Positions 998 through 63,857 of a stretch of DNA of 64,000 bases are shown one piece after another. The position numbers were made by a program, and so were the translations under genes. Position 1 is the stretch's first letter, and each line of letters begins with the position of its first letter. Below the pieces are notes generated by a model. It was not told the origin of the DNA. It did not search any database and was given only the letters and a program-made list of their open reading frames with translations. Origin of the DNA: Lewinellaceae bacterium (GTDB lineage Bacteria > Bacteroidota > Bacteroidia > Chitinophagales > Saprospiraceae); contig JADJSY010000083.1 in NCBI GenBank assembly GCA_016711435.1, positions 107,993-171,992 of the forward strand, read 5' to 3'.

Positions 998-1151
998 GCT
1001 CGATGATACAGTTTGGGTGAATGAAGTAAAAGGATAAAATTGCAAAGGGCAAAAAGCAATCCAAATCAATGTGTTACAGAAGATTTAGTTTTAACTCATT
1101 TTGAACACATCATTAAAATGATTTTAAAGATGCAAAAATACATCAAAATGG

Positions 1152-8800: not shown

Positions 8801-11800
8801 GAGTAACAACCAGCGTATAAGTCCCGGCGTTAAAGAGGGTAGCGCTCAAAATGGGAGGCGGGTATTGCAAGGTGCTCTCAAGTCCCGGCCCAATCCAATA
8901 ATAGGTCATTCCAGTACCCTGGGAGGGTGTACCCAGCACAATCGGCTGCCCCTCACAGATATTAATCACTTCCTGATCCAATTGCGCTATGGGACGGATA
9001 GCCACAATGACAGTTAACACCTCGGAATTCAGGGAAGTGCAACCGTCTGCCAGTACTTTTACAAAAAACTGGTAGGTACCCGCATCTGCCTCCGATAAGG
9101 TGAAATTAGGTTGTCCTGTGGCACCCAGTAAAATAGCGTTGCCCGGGATTCCGAGAAACCATTGATACGTAACATTGCTGCCGCCATAAGTCGGCGTATT
9201 CAGATGTATATCATCACCGCCGCAAAGATTGATATTCACCAACTGGAGTACCGGTTGTGTGGGCAGGTTGACCAGATCGACGGTTACAACACCGGTAGCG
9301 GTGCAACCAGTCAGGCCCGTAATTTTTACGGTGTAAGGCCCTTCAAAAGACAATTGCGCATTCGAGCGGATGGGATTTTGAACCGCTGAAGCAAAATTAG
9401 GCCCTGTCCACATATAGGTGAAAGTATTGGGCGGCGCCGCAGGCGGATTGGCAAACAATTGCAGGTTGCCTCCTTCACAAACAGGCGTGTAGGTCGGGTT
9501 TAAGGTAACTGTTTCTACCCGGACGAGGGTCGTGCAGGCAGCAGAGTTGCCGGAACTGTCTGTTACAGTAAGGGTTACATTGAAGTTATTCCCGGCATTG
9601 GCACAAGTGAAGACACTTTGCGAAAGCTGGAAATTCAGTGTGCCCGGACAATTATCCGTACTTCCATTGTCAATTTCGGAAGGTATCAGGGTATAACCGG
9701 AACCAACTGCCCCGGAGGGATTGACAAAAATGGTGGTTGACTCGCAAATAGCCACCGGTTTGATCGTATCCAGCACATTTATCTGAAATGTTGCCATGCC
9801 CTCGAGGCCGTATATGTCATCCGTCAGGTAGTTCACCGAATAAGTATCCGGTGAAAGAATCAGCGTAGTTTCATTGCCGTTCAGGCCGCCGCTCTGTATC
9901 AGTTGATCGGCACTGTTCCTGATTTCATAGGTTACGACCGCAAAACTATATTCCAGAATGGCCTGCACGCGGCTGATCCCATCTGTCTGATCGGCCTGCA
10001 AGGGACCGCAAGGTTCTATAAACTCGAAGAAGGTGCCCGCCTCGTCATTTGCCGCTAATTTGATCGCGGTACTTCCATTTGCTGCCCATGTATTGATCTG
10101 GGCTGCGGAAACAGGGATGATCGTCTCATGAAATTCATTACAATTACCAGGTGTTGTGCCGTTGGTAGTATTACCTAAATTAACATTATTTTCATCAAAA
10201 ACTTTGAAAAACTCACCGTTTTCGTCATTGTCGCCTTTGTGGCGGATTTTAAGAACCCCTCCGCTGACGGCATTGGGAATCAATCCTGCAATGTTCAGGG
10301 TAATCATTCCCGGAATCAACCCTGCATTCGGATCATTGACAAACTGTAGCGGCAGAATAGCCGAAGCCTGCGTAAGGCTGCCCGAAACATCACAGTTGTC
10401 TGTAATAACCGGGAATGGCAAATTTACCAGCGCTTCGCACTCATTGGCAATTACATACGCCGTCTGTGTAGAGGGCGCAGTAATGACAGGCAACTCCTGA
10501 TCGCTTACCGTAACAGTGCTGGAAGCAGTCGATTCATTGCCTGCACAATCTGTTGCCGTATAAACAATGGTATGTACACCTGGCGGCAGGAAGATTGGGT
10601 TTGCCGGAGGAAAAGGCATCTCCGGATTACCATCCAGCTGGAAAGACAGGATTACCGGAACCTGTGGCTCCGCAAACTGGTAATCGAGCTGCGCTCTTGA
10701 CCGGCCGCCCATACAAACTGCATTGGCGGCATTGGCGCCTGTACCGTTTGGCGCCAGCCGCAGCGTCAGGATGCCATCGGCCAGCCAGTTATTCAACAAT
10801 GTTTCCGAAATACTCACATCGGTAAATCCGGAGCCGCACTGGCCAGGTGTAACAGGGTTGGTAATGCCGAGTACAACATTATTTTCTCCCAGAATGGTAA
10901 AACTTTCAGAAGATTGTTCAGAGTCCGCACTGTCTAAAAAAATCCGCAAAGCGGCATTCCCGGTTACCGGAACAACAGGCGGCACATTTGGAGCAATCCA
11001 TTGAAAAACGACGGTATCGACCGGGGAGGTATTGTTTGGGCCGCCGGATGTATTGACCAATAACGAAGTGTCTCTCAGGGTAATACTGACCGGGAGAGAG
11101 GTGCAAATGTCAAATACCGAAACTGGTGGCGGAACAATGAAATCGGCGCCGCATTCCCCCGGATCATTCGCTAACGTAAGCGCATCAGGCGGAATCAGAT
11201 TGGGCGGCGTATTATCCTGAATAAGAATATTTTGGGTGTATCTGTTGGTATTCCCGCAATTGTCGGTAGCCGTCCATTCGCGTCGAATAATATAGTTGGT
11301 CCAATGGTCGCAGTTATTTAAGTCGGGATTTCGCAACTCCGATTCAACAAGCGCCACATCCACGGAGTCGTCGCAATTGTCGCTTGCATTAAAAGTGGCC
11401 GGATCGGGGGGGGCAGGAATGGCATCGCAGGAGACGGTAACATTGGGTGGAATGTTGGTCAGCACCGGACGCACCGTATCGAAAATGGCAATGTTCTGGG
11501 AAAAGGTGCTGGTATTGCCACATACATCACTGGCAACCCAGGTAATAGTCAGTGTGTAAGCATCTGCACACACACCGGGCGTATTGACCACACCCACGGT
11601 ATCCGGCGTTGCGGTTACGCCGCTACATGCATCCGTTGCTACCGGGATGGGCAATACCGGCGCCACGTCACAAACGCCTGTAGTATCCAGAAAACCCGCA
11701 AAAACAGGCCCCAGGTTATCTATGATGGACAGAACCTGTGTGGCAGTACGCGTATTCCCGCACTCGTCCGTGGCCGTAAAAATCCGGGTAATCTGGTAGC

Positions 11801-13763: not shown

Positions 13764-13847
13764 ACGGACGAGTTCATTTACCGGATCGATCTGGGAACAC
13801 CAATCCAAGTGTCAAAGGGATATTTTCGGTTGATCGGATTAAAGTAA

Positions 13848-15765: not shown

Positions 15766-16389
15766 ATGTATATAGTCAAAACACCCGCTTTTGTTCAACG
15801 CCTTTTTCCTGATTATACCTGGCAAATACCTACAGCGGAGCGGGTGTTGTACCTGACTTTCGACGACGGCCCTATTCCGGTTGTAACGCCCTGGGTGTTG
15901 GATACCCTGCGTCCCTTCGATGCCAAAGCCACTTTTTTTTGTGTGGGTGAAAATGTGCAGCGGCATCCCGATATTTTCCAACAAATAATAAAAGAAGGAC
16001 ATACGGTTGGCAATCATACCCTCCAACACCTGAATGGCTGGAAAACGGATACGGATACATACCTCCAAAACGTACAACTATGCGCCAACCTGGTTCCCGG
16101 TAATTTATTTCGCCCGCCTTATGGCCGCCTGCGCACTACCCAGGCTACTGCCTTAAAAAAAAATTACCAGATCGTTCTGTGGGACGTCTTGAGCGGCGAT
16201 TTTGACCGGGGCATTTCACCACAAAAATGTTTCAACAATATCAGGCGGCACGCCCGGCCGGGTTCAATTGTCGTACTGCACGACAGCCTGAAAGCAGAAC
16301 GCCATCTTCGATACGCCCTGCCGGCGTTGCTTGATTTCTATGCCGGGAAAGGATGGCGGTTTGAGCGTGTTTTGGTGTTTAGTGTTTAG
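15766..16389 (+). CDS. Polysaccharide deacetylase family protein
   Basis: ORF 15739..16389; ATG at 15766. YLTFDDGP and NHT..H motifs of NodB-type deacetylases. The last 5 codons plus stop lie inside a repeat arm. Confidence 0.8.
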   Translation: MYIVKTPAFVQRLFPDYTWQIPTAERVLYLTFDDGPIPVVTPWVLDTLRPFDAKATFFCVGENVQRHPDIFQQIIKEGHTVGNHTLQHLNGWKTDTDTYLQNVQLCANLVPGNLFRPPYGRLRTTQATALKKNYQIVLWDVLSGDFDRGISPQKCFNNIRRHARPGSIVVLHDSLKAERHLRYALPALLDFYAGKGWRFERVLVFSV

Positions 16390-16610
16390 GGCGCGTTGCC
16401 TTTGGCAGTAGTGGGTAGTTTGGCCAAATGGTGACTATATTTGGGGCGGCGGGGTGTGGGGTTTCGGGGGGGGGGGGGTTTCTCGACTTTTAAGTTTAGT
16501 AAACGTATCCTCGGCTAACCATGCACAAAACCTAACGGCGCAAACTATAACTAAGGCCAAAAGTTACCACCCCTAAACACTAAACACCATACCCTAAACA
16601 CCATCAAACA
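16371..16610. repeat. Composite H-family element: inverted CAAACAC-word arms enclosing an H unit, a G-quadruplex/G13 tract and a truncated A-family copy
   Basis: Left arm ttggtgtttagtgtttaggg (16372-16391). Right arm ccctaaacactaaacaccat... (16571-16609). Interior: gcgcgttgcctttggcagtagtgggtagtttggcc, G-runs at 16443-16478, the A half-copy at 16492-16519, and gttaccac at 16563-16570. Confidence 0.85.
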
Positions 16611-20030: not shown

Positions 20031-20999
20031 ATGAAAAATATTGCCATTCTTACAGGAGGCGACTCCGCAGAGCGGGTGATCTCGCTCAAAAGCGGACAGG
20101 TTGTACGCGAAAATTTACCCTCCGACCGCTATCGTACTTTCCTGATAGACATTCAAAAAGCCGACTGGCGGGATCTGGATTCCGGGATTTCCATAGATAA
20201 AAATGATTTCTCCCTGCGCCTTGCCAATGGAGAAAAAATTCATTTCGACGCTGCATTTGCCGCTTTACACGGCAGTCCGCTCGAAGACGGCAAAATGCAG
20301 GGTTACCTCGAAATGATAGGCATCCCATATACTTGCTGCGACGGTTATGTGAGTGCGCTTACCATGAGTAAACACAACACTAAACTGCAACTGGCGCCCT
20401 ACCAGGTTCCGATGGCGCCTTCTGAACTCTTGCAAAAAGGAGCGGCAGTGGATGTGGAGCAATTGCTTCAACTGGGCCTTCCGCTTTTTGTAAAACCCAA
20501 TGACCACGGTTCCAGTTTCGGCGTAACCAAGGTAAAAACGCAGGAAGCGCTGCTGCCCGCCATTATGGAAGCATTCGGGTATAGCAATGAAGTGATGGTG
20601 GAAGCATTTATGCCGGGCCGCGAATTCTCCAACGGCGTTATGCGGGTCAACGGCGAAATCGTTGTGTTGCCTGTCACGGAAATTATTCCCGAGACCGAAT
20701 TTTTTGATTTTGCCGCCAAGTATGAAGGGAAATCAAAAGAAGTCACGCCGGCTGATTTGTCAGACGCCCTTACGCAGCAATGCAGGCAACTGACCGGCAA
20801 AATTTATGAACTGCTCAAATGCAAAGGAGTGGTTCGGATTGATTACATTCTCGTGGGCGAGACTTTTCACCTGCTCGAACCCAATACCATTCCCGGTATT
20901 TCTCCTGCCAGTATTGTGCCGCAACAGGCACAGGCGCACGGCTGGTCATTGGGACATTTTTTTTCATTGCTGATTGAAGAGTCCCTGCGTACTGCTTAG
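20031..20999 (+). CDS. ddl: D-alanine--D-alanine ligase
   Basis: ATP-grasp pattern: ILTGGDSAERVISL, HG..GEDG-like LHGSPLEDGKMQGYLE, PLFVKPNDHGSSFGV, EPNTIPG. Confidence 0.9.
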   Translation: MKNIAILTGGDSAERVISLKSGQVVRENLPSDRYRTFLIDIQKADWRDLDSGISIDKNDFSLRLANGEKIHFDAAFAALHGSPLEDGKMQGYLEMIGIPYTCCDGYVSALTMSKHNTKLQLAPYQVPMAPSELLQKGAAVDVEQLLQLGLPLFVKPNDHGSSFGVTKVKTQEALLPAIMEAFGYSNEVMVEAFMPGREFSNGVMRVNGEIVVLPVTEIIPETEFFDFAAKYEGKSKEVTPADLSDALTQQCRQLTGKIYELLKCKGVVRIDYILVGETFHLLEPNTIPGISPASIVPQQAQAHGWSLGHFFSLLIEESLRTA

Positions 21000-21080
21000 T
21001 TATCCATTATTATTTGTTGGTTATCAGTCTTCATAATCAAGCATTTACAAAGAATTTAATCAAAACTAATTTTGCACACG
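21000..21080. repeat. G-family intergenic cassette (GTTATC words, degenerate palindrome, CAAAACTAATTTTG box)
   Basis: Aligns by eye with 30541-30625 and 53377-53459. TAATTTTG at 21067-21074 lies 13 nt before the ATG at 21088. The ddl stop TAG is the first word of the cassette. Confidence 0.8.
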
Positions 21081-21087
21081 TACTAAC

Positions 21088-21699
21088 ATGAAGATATTCT
21101 GCATCGGTCGCAACTACATCGACCACGCGAAAGAACTGAACAATCCGGTGCCCTCGGAACCGCTTATTTTTATGAAGCCGCCGACGGCGCTACTGTTGAA
21201 TAATCGGCATTTTTTTCACCCCGATTTTAGTAATAACATCCATTACGAAGGGGAAATCGTGCTGCGTATTGCTAAAAACGGCCGCTCGGTGCAGCCTGAA
21301 TTTGCGGGCCGCTACTACGACGCGGTGGCATTCGGAATCGATTTCACCGCACGCGATTTGCAGGATCAATTAAAAAGCAAGGGACATCCCTGGGAAATTG
21401 CCAAAGGATTCGACCGCTCGGCCCCGCTGAGCCGGTTCATCCCGCTGGAGGAGTTGAGTAATGCCGGCGATATTCATTTTCAATTGAAAAAAAACGGCGA
21501 AGTAGTACAGGACGGCCACACGCGCGACCTGATTTTTAGTTTTGACACCTTGATTTGCCATATTTCCCGTTATTTCACGCTTCACAAAGGCGATTACGTG
21601 TTTACGGGCACTCCGGCAGGCGTCGGCCCCGTCCAAATCGGCGATGTCCTGGAAGGTTTTATAGAAGGCGAGCGTTTGCTGCTGTGTAATGTTAAGTAG
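21088..21699 (+). CDS. Fumarylacetoacetate hydrolase family protein
   Basis: IFCIGRNY.DHAKE, IHYEGEIV, DFTARDLQ, and GDYVFTGTPAGVGPV motifs of the FAH family. 203 aa. Confidence 0.85.
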   Translation: MKIFCIGRNYIDHAKELNNPVPSEPLIFMKPPTALLLNNRHFFHPDFSNNIHYEGEIVLRIAKNGRSVQPEFAGRYYDAVAFGIDFTARDLQDQLKSKGHPWEIAKGFDRSAPLSRFIPLEELSNAGDIHFQLKKNGEVVQDGHTRDLIFSFDTLICHISRYFTLHKGDYVFTGTPAGVGPVQIGDVLEGFIEGERLLLCNVK

Positions 21700-21855
21700 T
21701 TATCCGTTAGTAGTTATTGGTTATCCGTGTTGTAGCGGAGAGGTGTCATTTGCGACGCAGGAGCAAGTGACATCTCGTAGCGGAAACCTGCTGGAAAACG
21801 GCCGTTTCGAGATGTCACCTCCTTCCTACGTCAGGAGATGACACCTCTTCACTAC
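21700..21855. repeat. G-family word fragment (21700-21731) followed by I-family nested palindrome (21732-21855)
   Basis: ttatccgttagtagttattggttatccgtgttg, then gtagcggagaggtgtcat...atgacacctcttcactac. Inner arms are gacgcaggagcaagtgacatctcg / cgagatgtcacctccttcctacgtc. Confidence 0.8.
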
Positions 21856-21915
21856 CCTTAAGTCAACCACATTGCCATAAACCCTTCAATTACAAACGCA
21901 TAAATTTTTTAAGCA

Positions 21916-26481: not shown

Positions 26482-26587
26482 AAGAACTGCAAAGGTACGC
26501 AGTACGGCGAAACTTTATTTCGTGTAAATGTCCGGGGTGAAACTGTACTTTTAGGCCGTTTTCGCCACCCAGTCCTACTCTATAGCC

Positions 26588-27529: not shown

Positions 27530-27658
27530 TTGGTGTCCTTTGGCCAGGCTACCCACTGTTGCCAAAGGCGAAGCGCCCCAAACACGAAACACCAAACACT
27601 ACACACGGCCGACCCAAGGCAATGCGCCCCAAACACTAAACACCATACACTAAACACG
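27530..27658. repeat. H-family units (2 direct copies)
   Basis: ggccaggctacccactgttgccaaaggcgaagcgccccaaacacgaaacaccaaacac..., then ggccgacccaaggcaatgcgccccaaacactaaacaccatacactaaacacg. Confidence 0.85.
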
Positions 27659-29817: not shown

Positions 29818-30537
29818 TTATTTTGCCCAGAGGTTATATTTCAGGATGCAGTAAATGGCCCGAAACCCGTCTTTTGCGCCGATTTTTTTGCCTTCGGCAT
29901 AAGAACGGCCATAGTATGAGATACCAACTTCATAAATCCGTATGGCGGGAATGCGGCTGATTTTGGCGGTTACTTCCGGCTCAAAGCCAAAACGTTTTTC
30001 CCGAAGATTCAATCCTTTCAGAATATCTGCCTTGAATAATTTGTAGCAGGTTTCCATATCCGTCAGGTTCAGATTGGTAAACATATTGGAAGTAAACGTC
30101 AGAAACTTGTTTCCGATGCTATGCCAGAAAAATAAAATACGGTGCGGCCGACCACCCATGAAGCGGGATCCGTAGACGACATCGGCATAACCATCCAGAA
30201 TCGAACGCAACAGGATATTATACTCCGCCGGATCGTATTCCAGATCGGCATCCTGAATGATGATGTATTGCCCTGAAGCATACTGAATACCCGTATGCAA
30301 GGCGGCGCCTTTTCCTTTATTCACTTCGTGTTTTTGATAGCGAATATTGAGTTCCGGATTGGCATCCATATATCGTTTGATGGCGCCTTCCGTATCGTCT
30401 TTTGAGCAGTCGTTGGTAATGATAATTTCTTTCTGTATGCCGCCGATCAATTCCACCCCTTTTATTTTATCGAGGATTCGATGGATGGTTCGCTCTTCGT
30501 TGTAGGCGGGAATAACAATAGACAAAGTGTCAGGCAT
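29818..30537 (-). CDS. Family 2 glycosyltransferase
   Basis: LSIVIPAYNEE, ITNDCSKDDT, and IIIQDADLEYDP (DxD) motifs. Confidence 0.85.
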   Translation of the reverse strand: MPDTLSIVIPAYNEERTIHRILDKIKGVELIGGIQKEIIITNDCSKDDTEGAIKRYMDANPELNIRYQKHEVNKGKGAALHTGIQYASGQYIIIQDADLEYDPAEYNILLRSILDGYADVVYGSRFMGGRPHRILFFWHSIGNKFLTFTSNMFTNLNLTDMETCYKLFKADILKGLNLREKRFGFEPEVTAKISRIPAIRIYEVGISYYGRSYAEGKKIGAKDGFRAIYCILKYNLWAK

Positions 30538-30540
30538 GGT

Positions 30541-30625
30541 TAAGTAGTTATTCGTTATTAGTTATCGGCTATTTGTGTTGATAATCAATCATTTGCAAAT
30601 AATTTAGCCAAAACTAATTTTGCTT
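30541..30625. repeat. G-family intergenic cassette (full copy)
   Basis: gtagttattcgttattagttatcgg...gtgTTGATAATCAAtcaTTTGcaaataatttagccaaaacTAATTTTG. Begins 3 nt from the GT2 start codon. Confidence 0.85.
30592..30622 (+). promoter_or_regulatory. Candidate Bacteroidetes-type promoter (-33 TTTG, 19-nt spacer, -7 TAATTTTG) inside G cassette
   Basis: TTTG at 30592-30595 and TAATTTTG at 30615-30622. The complementary strand reads TAGTTTTG (30609-30616), facing the GT2 gene. Confidence 0.35.
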
Positions 30626-30676
30626 GATTACTTATAATTTCAGGTAAAGACAAGAATTGGAGGGTAAAGGTACACC

Positions 30677-30921
30677 GTTTTTGGTGTTTCGTTTTTGGTG
30701 TTTGGGGGCGCATTGCCTTTGGCAACAGTGGGCATGACGGCCATAGAGTAGTTCAGGCGAAGCGGCCCAAACACCAAACACCAAAAACGAACCACCAAAA
30801 ACGGCCAAAGGCGCAGCGGCCCAAACACGAAACACCAAACACTAAATACCATACACTAAATACCAAAATGGCCAAGGGCGGAGCGCCCCAAACACCAAAC
30901 ACCACACACGAAACACCAAAT
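30677..30921. repeat. H-family cluster: one inverted plus three direct units
   Basis: Inverted unit at 30677-30742 (gtttttggtgtttcg...gcattgcctttggcaacagtgggcatgacggcc). Direct units start near 30755, 30803 and 30870, each with (g)gcc..ggcg.agcg(g/c)cccaaacac.aaacaccaaac. Confidence 0.9.
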
Positions 30922-32394: not shown

Positions 32395-33569
32395 TGCGCG
32401 TGGGAGCTTTTACAAGTTTTTACCGTCATCATATTGCCCGGTCTATAGGGCTTGTTTTTGCCGCAACCGGATTGCTGTATGGCACCTGGTCGGCACTGAT
32501 TCCATTTGTAAAAGAAAAGTTCGGACTGGATGAAGCGCAGCTGGGCTTACTTCTTTTATCGCTTCCTGCGGGTGTAACAATTATGAACCCTTTCGCCGTG
32601 CCTATTTTACACCGGTTCGGAGCGCCCAAAACAGCGCTTTTTTCGTTGGCCCTGGCATCAGTATTATTTGTGGCGCCTCTGACGGCCACTTCCGTCTGGT
32701 TGTTGGCCGTTTCGCTTTTTTTTGCCGGCGCGGCATTTTCTACCACCAATGTTGCTATGAATACCTGTTCCACCATGTTGGAAGGTCAGCAACAAATACG
32801 TATCATGTCTACCTGCCACGGTTTGTGGTCGGCAGGAGCCATGTCGGGTTCGGCGCTCGCAAGTGTTTTCACCGGCTTGGGTATATTGCCGTTGCTGTAC
32901 AGTTCCATTGTTGCAGGTTTATTAGTATCCGTTGCGCTGTTGTTGCGCAGGCCGCTGCAATTTTTGCGGGAAATCAGGCAGGACGGAGATGAAACTGCGC
33001 CCGTCGGCAAAAAATTTACTTTTCCCAATGCCCTGCTTTGGAGTTTGATTGTTATTAGTCTTTGTACCAACCTGGCAGAGGGTACTATGGCCGACTGGTC
33101 AGCAGTGTATATGAAAGAAGTTTTGGCATCTCCACCTTATATGATCGGCTGGGGATTTGCCTCCTACGCATTTTTTATGGCCGGCGGTCGTTTTGTAGGC
33201 GATGGACTGCTGGTGCGATATGGCGAGCGGGTCGTACTGATGGGCGGCGGGATCGTCGCAGCCATCGGTTTATTGTTGCCAGTCATTTTCCAAAATACAG
33301 GCGTGGCACTGCTGGGTTTTGCTATGGTGGGCGCCGGGGTTTCATTGGGCGCCCCTGTTCTTTACGGCGCTTCATCCCGTGTGCCGGGCATGGCGCCTGG
33401 CGCAGGATTGGCAACCATGAATACCTTTGCAATGGCCGGATTTCTGGGAGGCCCTGCACTGATCGGTTTTATTGCCAAATACTGGAGCCTTCCGGCCGCT
33501 TTTGCGCTGGTATCTTGCGCGGCCCTGTTCTGGGCCTGGCGGGCGCGACAAACGGTGGCGATCAAGTAG
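32394..33569 (+). CDS. MFS transporter (12 TM)
   Basis: 391 aa, hydrophobic throughout in a 6+6 pattern. ATG overlaps the adaptor stop (TGATG at 32392-32396). Confidence 0.8.
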   Translation: MRVGAFTSFYRHHIARSIGLVFAATGLLYGTWSALIPFVKEKFGLDEAQLGLLLLSLPAGVTIMNPFAVPILHRFGAPKTALFSLALASVLFVAPLTATSVWLLAVSLFFAGAAFSTTNVAMNTCSTMLEGQQQIRIMSTCHGLWSAGAMSGSALASVFTGLGILPLLYSSIVAGLLVSVALLLRRPLQFLREIRQDGDETAPVGKKFTFPNALLWSLIVISLCTNLAEGTMADWSAVYMKEVLASPPYMIGWGFASYAFFMAGGRFVGDGLLVRYGERVVLMGGGIVAAIGLLLPVIFQNTGVALLGFAMVGAGVSLGAPVLYGASSRVPGMAPGAGLATMNTFAMAGFLGGPALIGFIAKYWSLPAAFALVSCAALFWAWRARQTVAIK

Positions 33570-33735
33570 TTTGATGGTTTGAGAAGGTTTGATGGTTTGA
33601 AAAGTTTGATGGTTTGAGGTGGTAACTCATGGCTTACAGGTTACCACCTCAAACCATCAAACTTTTCAAACCATCAAACCTTCTCAAACCATCAAACCCC
33701 TTCAAACCATCAAACTTTCTCAAACCACTCAACCA
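33570..33735. repeat. B-family palindromic element (copy 1)
   Basis: Core ggtggtaac (33618-33626), loop tcatggcttacag, gttaccacc (33640-33648). Left arm has 3 tttgatggtttga words. Right arm has 5 caaaccatcaaac words at 17-18-nt period. Starts at the base after the MFS stop. Confidence 0.9.
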
Positions 33736-35793: not shown

Positions 35794-35885
35794 AAAAAGG
35801 TAAAGGGCAAAATTGCAAAGAGCAAAAAGCAATGTAAGTCATTGATTCACATTGCTTTTTGCCCTTTGTTATTTTGCCTTTTTTA
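35794..35885. repeat. J-family imperfect palindrome
   Basis: aaaaaggtaaagggcaaaattgcaaagagcaaaaagcaatgt - loop aagtcattgattc - acattgctttttgccctttgttattttgccttttt. Confidence 0.8.
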
Positions 35886-40603: not shown

Positions 40604-41059
40604 GTGTTACTCGAACTTGATCTTCTGACTTTCCAACCTCGTCTCCGCTTATCGCAATCGGGCGGCAAACACTTGGTTTTTGACCCGATCCGGCGAAAGG
40701 AAATGGTGCTGACACCGGAAGAAATGCTCCGCCAGATGGTGCTTCTGTATTTACTGGAACACAAAAAATACCCCGCTAACCGGATCCGGGTCGAAGTGGG
40801 CATCGAGTTAAACGGGCTGAAAAAACGCTGCGATATCGTCATTTTCGACCCGGAACTGCGGCCCTGGCTGCTACTGGAATGTAAATCGCCCAAAGTATCG
40901 CTTAACCAGGCCACTTTCGAGCAGGCTGCGCGCTATAATCTACAACTGCAAGCCCCTTTTTTAGTCATCACCAACGGCCTCTCTACTTATTGCGCCGGGC
41001 TGGATTTTGAACAACAAAGTTTTCAGTATTTGGCGGAACTGCCCGAATACTTGACGTGA
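40604..41059 (+). CDS. Type I restriction enzyme HsdR N-terminal domain-only protein
   Basis: C-terminal part of ORF 39656..41059; the remainder is antisense shadow of the kinase. IFDPIRRKEMVLTPEE..RQ...YL...KYP...I.VE..I.LNGLKKRCDIVIF......LLLECKSP.V and LVITNG match the HSDR_N_2 pattern. GTG at 40604 is the first in-frame start. Confidence 0.6.
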   Translation: MLLELDLLTFQPRLRLSQSGGKHLVFDPIRRKEMVLTPEEMLRQMVLLYLLEHKKYPANRIRVEVGIELNGLKKRCDIVIFDPELRPWLLLECKSPKVSLNQATFEQAARYNLQLQAPFLVITNGLSTYCAGLDFEQQSFQYLAELPEYLT

Positions 41060-41163
41060 ATCGTGAGTCGTGAATCGTGAGTGGCATTCCCTTGAAAGAC
41101 AATTGAGTACTTTCTTCAAACGGAATGCCACTCACTATTCACGACTCACCACTCACGATTCAC
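41056..41163. repeat. C-family palindrome built from GTGAATCGTGAGT words
   Basis: Left arm gtgaatcgtgagtcgtgaatcgtgagtggcattcc (41056-41090). Right arm ggaatgccactcactattcacgactcaccactcacgattcac (41122-41163). Sits between convergent stops; the TGA of the HsdR_N gene lies inside the arm. Confidence 0.9.
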
Positions 41164-41174
41164 TACTCTCGACA

Positions 41175-43874: not shown

Positions 43875-43933
43875 GGGGGCAAAGGTAAGAACGAGACGCG
43901 GATTACGCGGATAAGGCAGATTTACGCGGATTT

Positions 43934-45620: not shown

Positions 45621-45666
45621 GAACTGAAAATGGGTTTAGTAAATCGTGGATGACAAAATAGTCGGA

Positions 45667-45756
45667 GAAGGTTGGATGGTTTGAAGGTTGGATGGTTTGT
45701 GGTGGTAGCGCATGGCTCAGGTTACCACCACAAACCATCAAACCTTCAAACCATCC
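45667..45756. repeat. B-family palindromic element (copy 2)
   Basis: gaaggttggatggtttgaaggttggatggtttgtggtggtagc - gcatggctcag - gttaccaccacaaaccatcaaaccttcaaaccatcc. Confidence 0.9.
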
Positions 45757-46033
45757 CGTTCAGACAAATATAGCAATGGCAAAATTTGATTTTGATGTAT
45801 TGACAATAAAGGCGGGCAATGTTATGCAAAGATTTTTAAATCTGCTACAAAATACTGAAATTCAGCATGGACTTGTTTCGTTACACCGCTAAACCGGGTT
45901 TGAACCCAATTTTATAAGTATGCTGCCACGTTTTTTTGAACGAATTCATTTGTAAAGCATTGGTTATTATTGCTTTTTGCCCCTTGCTTTTTAGTATCCG
46001 GGCGCCAAACTTTCCCGTTCTTTGCGCCTTCAA

Positions 46034-50017: not shown

Positions 50018-50446
50018 TCAGCGAATATCCCATTTTTTCGTTTTAAAAAAACGAACCATTAGGTACAAAAGCAGGCCTGCCGGGCCGGTGAGCATGGTGA
50101 GCAGCAGGCTGGGAATGACAAAAATGTGTCCGATTTTTAGTTGCCGGGCATCGTGGGTTTGCCAGGTACCCACCAGCAGGCAAAACGACAGGTAATTGAG
50201 CCAGCCGGTCAGCAGCATTTCCTTGCTGCGGAATAAATTTTCAAAACCCTCTAAGGATAAAAAACTCCCTCCCCCCTCGCTGCGGGTCAGGTAGCGAAAC
50301 GTAAAAATGGCGGCGGCGACCAACAAAATAGTGGCCGAGCCGAAAGCGATCGGCTCGGTAAAACGACCATTGGGCGCCAGAATGAGCAGCAGCCAGGGTA
50401 GAAAAATAAGAATACTCGCGTACCAGTAAAAATTGTCGGCAGACAT
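50018..50446 (-). CDS. DUF4281 (ABA4-like) membrane protein
   Basis: 4 TM helices. FLPWLLLILAPN and GWLNYLSFCLLVGTW resemble the ABA4-like family. Confidence 0.55.
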   Translation of the reverse strand: MSADNFYWYASILIFLPWLLLILAPNGRFTEPIAFGSATILLVAAAIFTFRYLTRSEGGGSFLSLEGFENLFRSKEMLLTGWLNYLSFCLLVGTWQTHDARQLKIGHIFVIPSLLLTMLTGPAGLLLYLMVRFFKTKKWDIR

Positions 50447-50451
50447 GCGAA

Positions 50452-50507
50452 GGTTAGTTATTAGTTATCCGTTATTGGTTATCAGTGTTGATAATCAAGC
50501 ATTTACA
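50452..50507. repeat. G-family cassette, truncated (words plus TTGATAATCAA, no -7 box)
   Basis: ggttagttattagttatccgttattggttatcagtgTTGATAATCAAgcatttacag. Confidence 0.8.
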
Positions 50508-52057: not shown

Positions 52058-52067
52058 TTTTGTTGTT

Positions 52068-52184
52068 GAGGGTTGATAGGGTTGATGAAGGTTGATGTAC
52101 ATCCGCTCGAAAATGAAACGATTTTACTCATTTCGAGCGGATGTATATCAACCTTCATCAACCCTTATAAACCTTCATAAACCC
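52068..52184. repeat. B-like palindrome built from TCATCAACC words (variant core)
   Basis: gagggttgatagggttgatgaaggttgatgtacatccgctcgaaa ... tttcgagcggatgtatatcaaccttcatcaacccttataaaccttcataaaccc. Confidence 0.85.
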
Positions 52185-52195
52185 ATAAATATCAT

Positions 52196-53005
52196 TCATT
52201 TACACTGTTGATTGATCCCGCCCACATAGTGCTGTATGATGCCGATTTCGGCGGCCAGTTCGGCGCCTTTAAATCCTTTGATGTCGCTTGCTGTGATGGT
52301 TTTTTGATATTCATCCAGCAAAGGTTTGCTCAGGGGCGTGTATGACCAATGCCATTTTTCTTCGTGGTAGCCATTCGGGCGGCCTGCCGTATAGGGTTGG
52401 CAGAATCCGTATTCGTGGGCGTGTTCATTGAGCCAGGCATATACCTTCTGGTATTTTCCGCCGGTTTCGAAGGCGGCATTGTTCAAGTCGTTCAAATCAA
52501 TGTCGCTGCCCCAATGGTGGCGCGAGGAGCCGGGCATGGAAGAAAATTCAAGAATTTTGAGGGCGCGGTTTTTGGGCAGCGGGGCGTCTTTGGCAAAACG
52601 TTCCCATTTGGCTTCCCAGATGTTTTTTTGTTGCCCGAAACTGCGCGTGGAGGAAATGATTTTCAGTACAACTTTATCCTTTTGGGCCGCTGCCCACATT
52701 TTTTTAAATGCTTCGAAACTTTCTTTTCGCAGCATCATGCCTGCCCGGTCCGTATAGGGTTTGCCAACTTTTACGAAGTCGGGATGTGTGGCCGGATCAA
52801 ATTTGCCGAGCAGGTAATCGCTGTCGGCATCGGGCACAGTTACGGCTGCGGCGCTTGCTGCCGCGCCGGCAACAAGTGTAGCGGCCATAGTATCGCTTGC
52901 TACCGGCGCGGCGACTTTGAGCGGCACACCACTTGCTTCCGATGATGGGTCGCTTCCCTGGCAAGCCTGAAAAAAAAGGCTGAACGCCCAAAAAAATATA
53001 TACAT
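52196..53005 (-). CDS. M15-family D-alanyl-D-alanine carboxypeptidase (VanY-like), lipoprotein
   Basis: ATG at 53005. Lipobox LFFQAC|QG. SSTRSF..Q, SRHHWGSDIDL and EKWHWSY zinc-site motifs. Confidence 0.8.
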   Translation of the reverse strand: MYIFFWAFSLFFQACQGSDPSSEASGVPLKVAAPVASDTMAATLVAGAAASAAAVTVPDADSDYLLGKFDPATHPDFVKVGKPYTDRAGMMLRKESFEAFKKMWAAAQKDKVVLKIISSTRSFGQQKNIWEAKWERFAKDAPLPKNRALKILEFSSMPGSSRHHWGSDIDLNDLNNAAFETGGKYQKVYAWLNEHAHEYGFCQPYTAGRPNGYHEEKWHWSYTPLSKPLLDEYQKTITASDIKGFKGAELAAEIGIIQHYVGGINQQCK

Positions 53006-53039: not shown

Positions 53040-53074
53040 TTCAACACTGATAACTAATAACGGATAACTATTTA
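53040..53074. repeat. G-family word fragment in inverted orientation
   Basis: The reverse complement reads taaatagttatccgttattagttatcagtgttga. Confidence 0.6.
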
Positions 53075-53075
53075 C

Positions 53076-53375
53076 TTACTCGGCGCTTTCAATTATTTTT
53101 TTCAACGCTGTTTTGGTTTGTGTCCCCGCTTCGCTCCAAAGCAATTGCCCGTTTTTATACAGCATAAAAGTAGGAACGCCCATTACTTTCATCTGTACGG
53201 CCAGGTCTGTATGCTCGTCCACATCAATTTTTACGATCTGCACACGATCTCCCAATTCGGCTGTTAATTCATCCAGTATGGGAGTCATTGCACGGCAGGG
53301 GCCGCACCAGGTCGCCCAAAAATCAATGAGCACAGGTACGTCAGACTGGATGATCTGATCAAAAGAAGACGTCAT
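53076..53375 (-). CDS. trxA: Thioredoxin
   Basis: 99 aa. VLIDFWATWCGPCR active site. Confidence 0.9.
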   Translation of the reverse strand: MTSSFDQIIQSDVPVLIDFWATWCGPCRAMTPILDELTAELGDRVQIVKIDVDEHTDLAVQMKVMGVPTFMLYKNGQLLWSEAGTQTKTALKKIIESAE

Positions 53376-53376
53376 G

Positions 53377-53459
53377 TAGTTATCAGTTATTAGTTATCAG
53401 TTATCCGTGTTGATAATCAAGTATTTGTAAAAAATCTAGGCAAAACTAATTTTACACAC
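53377..53459. repeat. G-family intergenic cassette (full copy)
   Basis: gtagttatcagttattagttatcagttatccgtgTTGATAATCAAgtaTTTGtaaaaaatctaggcaaaacTAATTTTA. Starts 2 nt from the trxA start codon. Confidence 0.85.
53424..53454 (+). promoter_or_regulatory. Candidate promoter in G cassette (-33 TTTG, 19 nt, TAATTTTA); minus strand reads TAGTTTTG toward trxA
   Basis: TTTG at 53424-53427. TAATTTTA at 53447-53454 (last base deviates from consensus). The reverse complement of 53441-53448 is TAGTTTTG. Confidence 0.3.
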
Positions 53460-53521
53460 CTGCATTTGTTTGTATCTATTTGCCGCATAGTTCACAGATG
53501 TTAAAAGGTAATCAAAACGGG

Positions 53522-53562
53522 CTATGTGATCTATGTTTTTTTCTATGTATCTATGTGGTAAA
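53522..53562. repeat. D-family half copy
   Basis: ctatgtgatctatgtttttttctatgtatctatgtggtaaa, compared with the D1 right arm tgtgatctatgtggagtttctatgtgcctattgtggtaaa. Confidence 0.7.
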
Positions 53563-54201: not shown

Positions 54202-54238
54202 AAGTCCAGATGTGATGCAGGTGCGCTAATTTTGCAAG

Positions 54239-55591
54239 ATGAAATATTTATTCCCTATCCTGCTCTGGAGCGTTTTTATCGGGAAAATATACGCTCAACC
54301 TGCCACATTCCGCCCGATCACACTAAGTGAAAGCCTGCACCTGGCGCTCGAAAACAGTGCGCAACTACAGAAAGCCCGCCTGGACCGGCAGGGCATAGAC
54401 AAACGTATGCAGGAAGGACGCAGCGCTGCGTACCCCCAGATCAGCATGGGATTTGGAATAGATTATCTGCCTGTGCTGCCGACACAACTCCTTCCAGGTC
54501 AACTGTTTGGCATGGCTGACAACACCTTCCTGCCGGTACAATTTGGTCAGCCCTGGCAACTGACCGGCTCCATCCAGTTGCAACAACAACTTTTTAATGA
54601 GTCGATGCGCAGGGCCGCCCCAGCAGCCAATGTTACCAGAAACATCTACGATCTGCTGATTACCCGTTCGGAGGAAGAGGTAGTTTTCACGACTGCCACG
54701 GTTTTTTATCAGACCCTGCAAACGGAGCAGTTGCTGCGCGCCATGAACGCCAATCTCGATAAATTAGACGCCCTGCAACGCATGGCAGAATTACAATTGG
54801 CCAACGGTTATGCCATTCCAACGGATGTAAAACGGATCAAAGTAGCCCGTACGAACCTCGAAACGCAGCGCCAGAATTTGTATACGGCCATCAGCGGCTT
54901 GCGTCAGACCCTGCAATTCCTCTGTGGCGTTCCTTTTGAAGAGGCATTCGATCCGATGGAAGAGATGTCGGCGCCGGCTGCCGACTCGGCGCGTTGGCAG
55001 GTGCTGGCGCTGGAGCCGGAAAACACCACCGAATTTCGCCTGTTGCTGCACCAGGTAGAACTCAACCGCATTCAACTCAGCAGCCTTCGGGCCGAAAACC
55101 TGCCCAATTTTAGTGCGCATGCGAACGCTTTCACCCAAACATTCCGCCCTGACGCCAATTTTTTCGACCTCGACAGGCGCTGGTATGGCGCAGTTGCTTT
55201 TGGCCTGAAAATGCATATCCCGATTTTCGACGGCTTTCGACGCTTACATAAATCGAGTTTCCTGGCCATTGAAGGCCAGAAATTAGCCGAAGACCGCAGG
55301 CAACTGAACAGCGCAAAAGGCCTGGAATTCAGGCAGGCCCGCGAACAACTTCAAAATGCCCTGCGCTCCCTGCGTACCCAAACGGATAATGTCGGTCTGG
55401 CCAGGGAAATCAGCGACAAACTGATGCTTCAGTATAGAGAAGGCGTTGTGCCACTCACCGACCTGCTCAATGCTCAAACAGCCCTTTCCGAAGCAGAAAC
55501 CAACTACTGGCAACAGGTTTTTACCTATAAACTCGCTGTTTTAAAACTGCTTAAAACAACCGGGAAACTGGAGGAATTGAAGGAAAAATGA
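54239..55591 (+). CDS. TolC-family outer membrane efflux protein
   Basis: Signal peptide ...GKIYA|QPA. Two repeats of the coiled-coil/beta pattern (LSL.E.L..AL.N...L, P.ISL). 450 aa. Confidence 0.85.
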   Translation: MKYLFPILLWSVFIGKIYAQPATFRPITLSESLHLALENSAQLQKARLDRQGIDKRMQEGRSAAYPQISMGFGIDYLPVLPTQLLPGQLFGMADNTFLPVQFGQPWQLTGSIQLQQQLFNESMRRAAPAANVTRNIYDLLITRSEEEVVFTTATVFYQTLQTEQLLRAMNANLDKLDALQRMAELQLANGYAIPTDVKRIKVARTNLETQRQNLYTAISGLRQTLQFLCGVPFEEAFDPMEEMSAPAADSARWQVLALEPENTTEFRLLLHQVELNRIQLSSLRAENLPNFSAHANAFTQTFRPDANFFDLDRRWYGAVAFGLKMHIPIFDGFRRLHKSSFLAIEGQKLAEDRRQLNSAKGLEFRQAREQLQNALRSLRTQTDNVGLAREISDKLMLQYREGVVPLTDLLNAQTALSEAETNYWQQVFTYKLAVLKLLKTTGKLEELKEK

Positions 55592-55740
55592 AGATGGTTT
55601 GATTGTTGGAAGGGTTTGATGGTTTGAAAGGTTTGAGGGTTTGAGGTCGTAACGTAAAGCCAAGAGTTACCACCTCAAACCCTCAAACCTTTCAAACCTT
55701 TCAAACCATCAAACCCTTCCAACCATCAAACTTTCCAACC
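55592..55740. repeat. B-family palindromic element (copy 3)
   Basis: ...gggtttgatggtttgaaaggtttgagggtttgaggtcgtaac - gtaaagccaagag - ttaccacctcaaaccctcaaacctttcaaacctttcaaaccatcaaaccc... Starts at the base after the TolC stop. Confidence 0.9.
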
Positions 55741-55878
55741 TTTTCCGGCCTCATAAATCCTTATCCACACAATCCCTGCCATATTATGCCGTTTCAGGCA
55801 ACCTATTCCAGCAGACGTGCGTCATTCCAGCCGTTTGTAAGAGTAATAGAATAGACAAATCCACCTGCTTTTTTGAAA

Positions 55879-63647: not shown

Positions 63648-63857
63648 AAAACATGAGTCATCCCGGATTTTGTAGCGACTCTTAGTCGCGCCGGACAATT
63701 TCTTATTGATGATTGCTTATTGACAATTGATGATTTTTGATGTAAGGTGGCATCTTCGCACATCAAAAATCATCAATTGTCAATAAGCAATCATCAATAA
63801 ATAAGAGTTTGACCTCTATGTGGTCGTTTTGGCAAAATCTGGGATGACTCATGTTTT
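63648..63857. repeat. F-family nested double-hairpin element (copy 2)
   Basis: Outer arms aaaacatgagtcatcccggatttt / aaaatctgggatgactcatgtttt. Perfect 41-bp inner arms at 63704-63744 / 63760-63800. Shares non-palindromic blocks with copy 1 (gagtttgacct.t.tgtgg.cgtttt.ggcaaaatc). Confidence 0.9.

What the first reader, a model, noticed from the sequence alone, without database searches (positions are those of the whole stretch)
53377..53459. G-family: a repeated roughly 85-bp cassette carrying a promoter-like TTTG-N19-TAATTTTG, an 11-bp perfect palindrome and GTTATC word repeats
Copies:
- 21000-21080
- 30541-30625
- 53377-53459
- 50452-50507 (truncated)
- 53040-53074 (inverted fragment)
- 21700-21731 (fragment)

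Layout: 3-5 GTTATC/GTTATT words - GTG - TTGATAATCAA (perfect 5-1-5 palindrome, operator-like) - ..TTTG - 19 nt - CAAAACTAATTTTG. The spacing and motifs fit the Bacteroidetes primary-sigma promoter (-33 TTTG, -7 TAnnTTTG) on the plus strand. Because CAAAACTAATTTTG is nearly palindromic, the minus strand also reads TAGTTTTG.

The word end of the cassette abuts start codons (GT2 at 30537, DUF4281 at 50446, trxA at 53375). It also supplies the TAG stop of ddl (20997-20999) and of the FAH gene (21697-21699). This could be a portable, possibly co-regulated, bidirectional promoter module.
Basis: partly seen in the sequence, partly recalled or inferred. Interest (0 to 1): 0.65.

Follow-up and report, generated by a model that had tools for sequence, protein, structure and literature searches.

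The report
Mobile intergenic repeat with promoter-like box
The repeated cassette is real, but it is best read as a small non-coding mobile-type repeat (about 94 bases) that has spread through the gene junctions of some wastewater Saprospiraceae bacteria and happens to carry a promoter-like sequence, rather than a dedicated co-regulated promoter switch.

Summary
The true unit is about 94 nt: TAAGTAG, four TTATYNG heptamer words, GTGTTGATAATCAA, GCATTTGCAAAGAATTTAATCTAAACTAATTTTGC, then ..CTACTTA. Both boundaries are sharp.

It is a dispersed repeat, at about 9 copies per 100 kb here and in at least three or four other Saprospiraceae/Lewinellaceae MAGs. In wastewater metagenomes its word depth is 100-300 times that of the flanks. 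It is absent from the orthologous trxA sites of close relatives, so these copies are lineage-specific insertions. Word number and neighbouring repeats vary between strains.

The word end abuts a start or stop codon in about 70% of copies, against 23% for the other end and 10% for random positions. It can supply the stop codon.

The Bacteroidota-type promoter match (TTTG-N19-TAnnTTTG) is real in the window copies and well placed for the FAH gene. Only 8 of 40 full copies keep it intact. Occupied junction types match the baseline, and in tandem gene pairs the box more often points against the genes.

No transposase partner, target duplication or transcription start could be shown. Verdict: a MITE-like repeat with an incidental, sometimes usable promoter. 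The co-regulated operator idea is unsupported.

The parts
53373..53466 (+). Full G copy (the finding). Its left terminus overlaps the trxA start codon (CAT 53373-53375). Its right terminus is degenerate (ACACACCTGCATT).
   Evidence: (nhmmer 53376-53461, E 6e-19)
53380..53407 (+). Four heptamer words: TTATCAG TTATTAG TTATCAG TTATCCG. Word number varies from 3 to 4 among strains that have an identical TrxA.
53400..53420 (.). Central inverted repeat. The last word and the core pair (TTATC..GATAA), and the stretch includes the 11-nt palindrome TTGATAATCAA (53410-53420).
53424..53454 (+). Promoter-like stretch: TTTG (53424-53427), 19 nt, TAATTTTA (53447-53454; the last base departs from TAnnTTTG). 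The predicted start is about 53459, pointing to a 154-aa ORF 280 nt away.
   Evidence: consensus position from PMC9723704; inference
53441..53448 (-). Minus-strand TAGTTTTG box. No TTTG/TTG lies about 19 nt upstream. It would give trxA a leader of about 60 nt.
   Evidence: sequence reading
20993..21086 (+). Full copy filling the ddl-FAH spacer. The ddl stop TAG (20997-20999) lies in the left terminus. Palindrome variant TTCATAATCAA 21030-21040. TTTA 21044-21047. TAATTTTG 21067-21074. FAH ATG at 21088.
30541..30634 (+). Full copy. TAAGTAG 30541-30547 lies 3 nt from the GT2 start codon (30535-30537, minus strand). Perfect TTTG-N19-TAATTTTG at 30592-30622. Right terminus ACTTA 30630-30634.
50451..50507 (+). 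Left half only (words, core, GCATTTA), lying between the nadC stop and the ABA4-like start. Its truncated end is a hot spot where other repeats sit in other strains.
21693..21732 (+). Word arm (TAAGTAG, four words, GTGTTG) that supplies the FAH stop TAG (21697-21699). It is joined to a different palindromic element (about 21733-21867).
53041..53079 (-). Word arm on the minus strand between trxA and VanY. It supplies the trxA stop TAA (53076-53078). TrxA is two residues shorter than in relatives that lack the insertion.

Best explanation
The G-family is a non-coding dispersed repeat of about 94 bp, of the miniature mobile-element type (MITE-like). It is an imperfect foldback with short inverted termini (TAAGTAG ... 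CTACTTA), an arm of four 7-nt words, a central inverted repeat, and an AT-rich right half.

It has multiplied in the intergenic junctions of a subset of Saprospiraceae/Lewinellaceae genomes and is exchanged or rearranged in modules.

Surviving copies sit with the word end directly on a gene boundary. The terminus provides TAA or TAG for an upstream gene, or lies 0-7 nt from the ATG of a gene read away from it.

The right half resembles the Bacteroidota sigma-A promoter. Where a gene start lies just beyond it, as with FAH at 21088, it probably serves as that gene's promoter. Elsewhere it is a passenger, and the element is simply transcribed as part of longer RNAs.

Shown: repeat family, boundaries, abundance, lineage-specific presence, strain polymorphism, positional rule, motif match.

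Inferred: mobility mechanism (possibly TA-targeted cut-and-paste by a transposase supplied from elsewhere in the genome) and promoter activity.
For: Family and boundaries:
- 60 genuine copies among 96 fetched loci, nearly all in MAGs GFS_13524, SJ208 and Bin_28_2_sub.
- Flanks become random exactly outside T(-34) and A(+59).

Abundance:
- 9.4 copies per 100 kb in the window, and 8.6 per 100 kb for non-anchor copies in the host loci.
- Word depth of 400-2100 against about 7 for the flanks in four wastewater metagenomes. Contigs break at the element.

Insertion status:
- L126 (TrxA 91% identical) and more distant relatives lack the element both upstream of trxA and between trxA and VanY.
- The native trxA promoter box lies next to the ATG in relatives but about 250 nt away in the window.
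- There are no copies in 190 kb of VanY-relative loci or 25 kb of FAH-relative loci outside the window's own strains.

Turnover: word number and neighbouring repeats differ between strains with identical proteins.

No coding capacity and no RNA-family match.

Foldback: z -2.9 for the consensus and -4.05 for copy 30541.

Position:
- The word end is on a start or stop codon in 57 of 81 copies, against 9 of 39 for the other end and 10% for random positions (looser count 52 of 58).

Promoter plausibility.
Against: - No transposase with matching ends was found. Inverted pairs 0.5-3.5 kb apart merely flank nadA, groEL and radC.
- A target-site duplication could not be established. TA is compatible (TA|AGTAG...CTACT|TA; the ddl-FAH junction would restore to GCTTAACATG), but no clean empty site at high identity was found.
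- The inverted termini are only 7 bp in the main subfamily.
- The strong asymmetry, with only the word end tight to genes, is not explained by simple TA-targeted insertion plus neutral survival.
- No transcription start data exist. One metatranscriptome contig spans the GT2 5' end plus the whole cassette, which argues for read-through rather than initiation inside it. That contig is undirected, and DNA carry-over is possible.
Confidence: 0.72

Rival explanations
1. One reading: a selected, co-regulated bidirectional promoter module. The palindrome or word array would be an operator for one regulator controlling all adjacent genes.
For: - Good sigma-A-type boxes in the three window copies, including the mirrored TAGTTTTG.
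- The words and palindrome are the best conserved part.
- TGATAATCA equals the centre of the enterobacterial Fur box, and AATCAAGCATTTG fits the E. coli IHF consensus WATCAANNNNTTR (own knowledge, a lead only).
- 50 of 54 copies have at least one neighbour that could be driven from it.
Against: - Only 8 of 40 full copies keep TTTG-N18-20-TAnnTTTG, 12 of 40 keep the -7 box and 6 of 40 keep the minus box.
- The G of the -33 TTTG is present in only about 60-65% of copies (38 of 58; 26 of 40).
- Occupied junction types equal the baseline (chi-square p = 0.32).
- In tandem gene pairs the plus box is anti-oriented in 23 cases and co-oriented in 14.
- Neighbouring genes are functionally unrelated.
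- The element is absent from orthologous loci of relatives, where the same genes have their own promoters.
- Hundreds of copies would titrate any regulator.
Confidence: 0.08
2. A REP/REPIN-type element mobilised as single-stranded DNA by a RAYT or IS200/IS605-like tyrosine transposase. GTAG in both termini would be the cleavage tag.
For: - Both termini contain GTAG in inverted orientation.
- Several other word-array repeats in the window also start with GTAG: 27602 (-), 41166 (-), 33568, 35797.
- The palindromic element joined to the arm at 21733-21867 begins GTAGCGG and ends CACTAC.
- GTAG-tagged repeats are the substrate of RAYTs (PMC3733652).
- A central hairpin is present.
Against: - There is no stem-loop directly next to the GTAG tag, which REPs have.
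- GTAG is absent from many arrays.
- Neighbouring copies are co-oriented no more often than by chance (14 against 13), unlike strand-specific single-strand insertion.
- No RAYT gene was seen. None could be searched genome-wide.
- GTAG REPs were not reported from Bacteroidetes in that survey.
Confidence: 0.12
3. A selected gene-boundary element. The 7-nt words put a stop codon into all three frames (GATAAC/AATAAC carry TAA on the minus strand), so they insulate translation at junctions or serve as an unstructured AU-rich leader in a phylum that lacks Shine-Dalgarno pairing. Mobility would be secondary.
For: - The word end sits within 0-7 nt of ATGs or on stops in about 70% of copies, and the other end does not.
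- Other heptamer arrays in the window and in relatives also start exactly at stops or starts, and most carry a stop triplet per word: (GTGAAAA)x10, (CGTGAAT)n, (GGTTTGA)n.
- The words are more conserved than the terminus or the right half.
- Bacteroidota initiation depends on leader sequence and structure (PMC6847099 abstract).
Against: - The bases at -3 and nearby in the element-derived leader are not the favoured adenines (sequence reading).
- Relatives manage without the element at the same genes.
- Any 94-nt AT-rich sequence tends to hold stops in all frames.
- There is no expression or ribosome data.
Confidence: 0.08

Closest known systems
Correia repeat-enclosed elements (CREE/NEMIS) of Neisseria (own knowledge)
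   Same: - Non-coding dispersed repeats of about 100-150 bp at hundreds of copies.
- Located next to genes and co-transcribed with them.
- Carry promoter elements near their ends and an IHF-like site.
- A TA target is compatible.
   Different: - Correia elements have 25-26 bp inverted termini and a demonstrated TA duplication.
- They have no tandem heptamer array.
- They are not reported to sit exactly on start or stop codons.
- They occur in a different phylum.
BrickBuilt MITE of Porphyromonas gingivalis (PMC4596501)
   Same: - Same phylum.
- A small MITE-like element with a tandem repeat array between 'leader' and 'tail' parts and small inverted ends.
- Always intergenic.
- Some segments show bidirectional promoter activity.
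   Different: - BrickBuilt uses 23-nt repeats in variable number and has only 19 copies.
- It lies 49-591 nt from coding sequences, whereas G copies abut them.
- No sequence similarity was tested or is expected.
GTAG-tagged REP/REPIN repeats and their RAYT transposases (PMC3733652)
   Same: - GTAG at the outer ends in head-to-head orientation.
- High copy number, clustering, nesting and tandem arrays.
- Transcribed as parts of mRNAs.
   Different: - REPs are 20-40 nt stem-loops next to the tag and are enriched downstream of genes.
- G has a word array next to the tag.
- G occupies junction types at baseline frequencies.
- No RAYT is known for it.
STRR heptanucleotide repeats of heterocystous cyanobacteria (own knowledge)
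   Same: Tandem 7-nt words in intergenic regions, in several families per genome, some embedded in MITE-like repeats.
   Different: - A different phylum and different words.
- STRR arrays are not known to carry a promoter-like module or to mark codon-exact gene boundaries.
Bacteroidota sigma-A promoter (-33 TTTG / -7 TAnnTTTG; PMC9723704)
   Same: The window copies match both boxes at 19-nt spacing. The box-to-ATG distance at FAH resembles that of native genes in the window.
   Different: The match is a motif match only. It is lost in most family members, and no start site has been mapped.

Membership tests
[quoted passage not shown] | Small (under about 500 bp), non-coding, multi-copy | tested here: met
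   - About 94 nt.
- 6 copies in 64 kb.
- At least 60 copies in fetched loci.
- Word depth 100-300 times that of the flanks.
[quoted passage not shown] | Terminal inverted repeats | tested here: inconclusive
   - TAAGTAG/CTACTTA gives 7 bp, with 77% of cells paired over 40 copies.
- The pairing is longer (about 9-13 bp, imperfect) in the ..GATATACTTA / ..GATTACTTA subfamily.
- This is short for a DDE substrate.
[quoted passage not shown] | Target-site duplication | tested here: inconclusive
   TA is compatible with the profile, with the ddl-FAH junction and with abutting elements that share one TA. The empty sites found (L126, L128 and others) are too diverged to fix the joint.
[quoted passage not shown] | Presence/absence at orthologous sites | tested here: met
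   Both trxA-flanking copies are absent in L126 (TrxA 91% identical) and in 12 further syntenic relatives.
[quoted passage not shown] | Cognate autonomous element with the same ends | tested here: not met
   None was found in the window or in about 350 kb of host loci; inverted pairs flank nadA, groEL and radC. Whole genomes could not be searched.
REP/REPIN (RAYT-mobilised) | GTAG tag at the end of the unit | tested here: met
   GTAG is present in both termini, but the G at -31 is found in only 33 of 58 copies.
REP/REPIN (RAYT-mobilised) | Stem-loop of 5-13 bp directly beside the tag | tested here: not met
   The tag is followed by the non-palindromic word array. The only conserved hairpin is central.
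REP/REPIN (RAYT-mobilised) | RAYT gene flanked by the repeats | not testable with these tools
Bacteroidota sigma-A promoter | -7 TAnnTTTG with -33 TTTG/TTG 17-21 nt upstream | tested here: met
   Perfect in copy 30541, one mismatch in copies 21000 and 53377, but perfect in only 8 of 40 family members.
Bacteroidota sigma-A promoter | Transcription start about 5 nt downstream of the -7 box | not testable with these tools
   Only undirected contigs of metatranscriptomes were available.
Transcription-factor regulon site | Sites upstream of a functionally coherent gene set, conserved at orthologous promoters | tested here: not met
   The neighbours are unrelated, and orthologous promoters in relatives lack the element.

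The most novel reading that the evidence does not exclude
The G-family may be one member of a superfamily of modular 'word-arm' elements in Saprospiraceae. Each element would consist of a TAAGTAG-like tag, a 7-nt word array with a family-specific word, and interchangeable cores.

These elements would be placed, or retained, exactly at start and stop codons by a mechanism that recognises gene ends. They would rebuild intergenic regions wholesale, supplying stops in all frames, leaders and sometimes promoters, in a phylum that does not use Shine-Dalgarno initiation.

That would make them a new class of gene-boundary mobile element, not an ordinary MITE.
Probability: 0.15. Interest if true: 0.8.

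Novelty: new variant of a known kind. Interest (0 to 1): 0.5.

Why it matters
Saprospiraceae are abundant in activated sludge and known mostly from MAGs.

- **Assembly.** A repeat at roughly one copy per 10 kb breaks short-read assemblies at gene junctions: contigs end on it in every metagenome examined.
- **Annotation.** It rewrites 5' leaders and 3' ends. TrxA lost two residues, and the native trxA promoter was displaced by about 250 nt.
- **Expression.** If some copies act as promoters, or if word-number changes next to start codons alter expression, the family would be a source of rapid strain-level regulatory variation.
- **Mechanism.** The codon-exact placement of one end, shared with other heptamer arrays, is unexplained. 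It could point to an unknown insertion or selection mechanism.

Tried and rejected
- **Known RNA or tRNA.** No Rfam hit at gathering threshold or at E <= 1, and no tRNA.
- **Conserved RNA or DNA structure.** The foldback exists but shows no covariation beyond shuffles (31-72 of 500 reach the observed values). RNAalifold keeps only the invariant central hairpin.
- **Transcription starts from metatranscriptomes.** Only undirected Logan contigs were available. Contig ends coincide with polymorphic positions in the repeat, so they are not evidence of starts.
- **Empty alleles in the species' own population.** No contig skips a cassette at 21000, 50452 or 53377 in the DNA runs examined: X1, X2, X5 and X8 for 50452 and 53377, and X1, X2, X5 and X13 for 21000. 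Copy 30541 was not checked this way.
- **An empty ddl-FAH site in relatives.** FAH orthologues at 83-86% identity have different upstream neighbours, so there is no comparable junction.
- **Autonomous partner between inverted termini.** Only housekeeping genes lie there.
- **Replication-strand-type orientation bias.** Neighbouring copies share orientation in 14 pairs and differ in 13.
- **Plasmid or phage carriage.** No blastn hit in plasmids, and the 13 viral-contig pattern hits lack the words.
- **Preference for promoter-needing junctions.** Not significant.
- **Fur-box or IHF-site resemblance of the core.** Noted from memory only, not tested.
- **Shared coding DNA.** (only repeats are shared with the window) says nothing about divergence, because the loci cover other genes.

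Full report
**1. The observation**

The layout is a run of GTTATY words at 7-nt spacing, then GTG, then TTGATAATCAA. In the three long copies this is followed by ..ATTTR-N19-TAATTTTR.

None of this is chance:
- The palindrome with up to 1 mismatch occurs 10 times against 1.4 expected.
- CAAAACTAATTTT occurs 3 times against 0.3 expected.
- Two adjacent words occur 11 times against 0.05 expected.

The repeat finder recovers the copies as families D3-D5 and I14. A profile HMM built from copies in other genomes hits the window at exactly the six listed places and nowhere else.

**2. The real unit**

Sixty matches carry the words upstream. Nearly all lie in three MAGs: Lewinellaceae GFS_13524, Saprospiraceae SJ208 and Saprospiraceae Bin_28_2_sub. 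Single hits lie in a Bacteroidota MAG and in a probably mis-binned contig.

Stacking 58 copies shows random sequence up to position -35 and from +60 onward. Between these lies a conserved block of 94 nt:
- TAAGTAG
- TTATCCG TTATTAG TTATTGG TTATCAG
- TGTTGATAATCAA
- GCATTTGCAAAGAATTTAATCTAAACTAATTTTGC
- then either ACACCTACTTA or CTGATATACTTA

The ends are short inverted repeats. TTAGTTA pairs with TAAACTAA, and the last word pairs with the core (GGTTATCA-GTGT-TGATAATC). The whole unit is therefore an imperfect foldback, with z -2.9 for the consensus and -4.05 for copy 30541.

Forty aligned full copies show no compensatory change beyond shuffled controls. The symmetry therefore looks inherited, not selected as a structure.

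**3. A dispersed, lineage-restricted, turning-over repeat**

Density:
- 9.4 per 100 kb in the window.
- 8.6 per 100 kb for copies in the host MAG loci that were not used as search anchors.
- Among profile hits, 50 are full, 24 are left part only and 2 are right part only.

In four wastewater and activated-sludge metagenomes that hold this species, assembler word depth jumps from about 7 on the flanks to 400-2100 on the cassette. Contigs end there.

Orthologous comparison gives empty sites. Sixty-two VanY-relative loci were fetched, and seventeen keep the trxA-VanY synteny. Only the window's own strains (L125, L127) carry the element. L126 has TrxA 91% identical and VanY about 85% identical. 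It reads ...GGGTCTTCATTATTTAAAAACATGTTTATTATG upstream of trxA and has a 43-nt trxA-VanY spacer with no words. More distant relatives have 28-nt spacers.

In those relatives a -7 box lies just upstream of the trxA ATG: TACCTTTG within about 10 nt in the more distant ones (L131, L132, L134, L141), and TATCTTGC about 40 nt upstream in L126. In the window the orthologous box is about 250 nt away. The G copy and another element of about 88 nt lie in between.

The minus-strand arm at 53041-53079 replaced the last two TrxA codons (..ENQ* became ..E*) and supplies the TAA stop.

Among strains with identical TrxA, the number of words before the ATG is 3 or 4, and the neighbouring 88-nt element is present or absent. 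The nadC-ABA4 spacer ranges from 62 to 262 nt. Other repeats, and in one strain a second inverted G copy, are inserted at the GCATTTA| end of the left half.

FAH orthologues at 83-86% identity have no G copy on either side.

**4. Position relative to genes**

The word end lies on a gene boundary. In 58 copies, 32 have a long ORF running away from the element whose ATG is within -3 to +17 nt of the terminus. Eleven of these use the terminal base as the A of ATG. About 20 have an upstream ORF that stops in TAA or TAG of TAAGTAG.

A stricter test on 81 profile hits gives 70% tight at the word end, 23% at the other end and 10% at random positions.

The kinds of junction occupied (48 co-directional, 14 divergent, 6 convergent) do not differ from unoccupied junctions in the same loci (136, 36, 33; p = 0.32). 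In co-directional pairs the plus-strand box points with the genes 14 times and against them 23 times. Neighbouring copies share orientation no more than chance predicts.

**5. The promoter question**

In Flavobacterium the sigma-A -7 box TAnnTTTG lies at -12 to -5 (PMC9723704). The window's own genes often carry TAnnTTTG 4-30 nt before the ATG, for example at 26490, 43880, 54227, 18897 and 19996.

The three full copies compare as follows:
- Copy 30541 is a perfect TTTG-N19-TAATTTTG.
- Copy 21000 has TTTA and a perfect -7 box 13 nt before the FAH ATG. That is a native-looking arrangement and the best case for real promoter use.
- Copy 53377 has TAATTTTA and points at an ORF 280 nt away.

All three also read TAGTTTTG on the minus strand, but without a -33 element.

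Across 40 full copies, only 8 keep the bipartite motif, 12 keep the -7 box and 6 keep the minus box. The large ..CTGATATACTTA subfamily has lost a T from the box.

Metatranscriptome contigs show that trxA is expressed and that cassettes occur inside RNAs. One contig with a single mismatch covers 30417-30623, which is the GT2 5' end plus the whole cassette, and continues beyond it. These contigs are undirected, end at polymorphic positions in the repeat, and may include DNA. No start site can be read from them.

**6. Mechanism**

The best-supported reading is a MITE-like non-autonomous repeat.

What was shown:
- Sharp ends.
- No coding capacity.
- High copy number.
- Patchy host range.
- Empty orthologous sites.
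- Strain-level turnover.
- Nesting and tandem arrays (L001, L043, L073).

What is inferred is the way it moves. A TA target is compatible with several observations:
- The terminal TA on both sides.
- Restoration of the ddl-FAH junction to GCTTAACATG.
- Abutting elements that share one TA.

No clean empty site fixes this. No transposase lies between inverted termini in the data at hand.

GTAG in both termini, and in some other arrays of the window, recalls RAYT-mobilised REPs. The hairpin next to the tag is missing, however, and there is no orientation clustering.

Simple neutral insertion does not explain why only the word end is codon-tight.

**7. Wider context seen on the way**

The word arm (tag, words, GTGTTG) also occurs joined to other cores:
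- at 21693-21732, joined to a GTAG...CTAC palindromic element;
- in L021, L065 and L070.

A sister family at window 1024-1115 and in L086 shares the termini and right half but has AAAGGGC/AAAAAGC words.

Many other intergenic repeats in the window are heptamer or octamer word arrays that start at stop or start codons and often form long hairpins. Relatives have (GTGAAAA)x10 and (GTACACT)x3 at the ends of FAH.

**8. Comparison and novelty**

Functionally the closest matches are the Correia elements of Neisseria and the BrickBuilt MITE of Porphyromonas gingivalis. BrickBuilt is a tandem-repeat-containing MITE with bidirectional promoter activity in the same phylum.

The family itself was not found in the literature searched. 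It was not found in Rfam, plasmids or viral contigs either.

It fails or leaves open some defining MITE tests: long inverted termini, target duplication and a partner transposase. It also has an unusual positional rule. I therefore rate it a new variant of a known kind, of moderate interest.

Noticed in passing
window 16367-16601, 27538-27657, 30675-30920, 33564-33732, 41055-41173, 45666-45756, 52062-52184, 55582-55750, 63694-63800: Many other intergenic repeats are tandem 7-10-nt word arrays: GTGTTTN, GGTTTGAN, CGTGART, GGTTGATN, TTGATGA. They often form 35-65-nt hairpin arms and often start exactly at a stop or start codon. The one that lay in a stretch laid on metagenomes (52114-52264) is also at very high word depth.
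   Followed up: partly
window 1024-1115; also 35797-35885, 45939-45995; L086:6265-6320: A sister family shares the AAGTA.. terminus and the right half (..TTACAGAAGATTTAGTTTTAACTCATTTTG.. / ..CAAACTAATTTTGCTTGATTACTTA) but has AAAGGGC/AAAAAGC words. The modules appear to be shuffled between families.
   Followed up: partly
window 53454-53547: An element of about 88-94 nt (CATAGATA-type) next to the G copy is present or absent among strains with identical TrxA. L100 and L103 lack it, and a metagenome contig skips 53453-53548.
   Followed up: partly
window 21733-21867: A palindromic element of about 135 nt with ends GTAGCGGAGAGGTGTCAT... and ...ATGACACCTCTTCACTAC is joined directly to the word arm after the FAH stop. 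It looks like a REPIN-type GTAG-ended hairpin repeat.
   Followed up: no
L195:1120-1200 and 1813-1860; L187:1162-1200: Relatives carry other heptamer arrays at the same gene ends: (GTGAAAA)x10 from the stop codon upstream of FAH, (GTACACT)x3 after the FAH stop, and (GTCTACC)x2 before the FAH ATG.
   Followed up: no
window 53076-53084 compared with L126, L128, L131 and others: TrxA of this species ends ..AE*, whereas relatives end ..(A/V)ENQ*. The 3' end of trxA in relatives reads GTGTTGAAAATCAATAG, which resembles the cassette core GTGTTGATAATCAA. This may be coincidence or a hint of microhomology at the insertion.
   Followed up: partly
window 26490-26497(-), 43880-43887(-), 54227-54234(+): TAnnTTTG boxes lie only 4-8 nt before the ATG of their ORFs, which suggests leaderless or near-leaderless mRNAs are common in this organism.
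   Followed up: no
window 5862-13808 (-): A very long ORF of 2648 aa with internal DNA repeats (11248-12047). It was not examined.
   Followed up: no
L202:12686-12757 (IMG/VR contig): A viral-collection contig holds the same core GTGTTGATAATCAA..CATTT flanked by different words ((AAGTGAC)x3 and inverted GTGTCAC..). It may be another member of the modular superfamily.
   Followed up: no
L097/L107 (GCA_963853525.1, contig CAWKXD010000004.1, about 714.9-750.8 kb): The window is co-linear with this 1.5-Mb contig of a wastewater MAG: FAH and trxA are 32.5 kb apart in both. The two differ by point changes, so they are the same species but another strain.
   Followed up: partly
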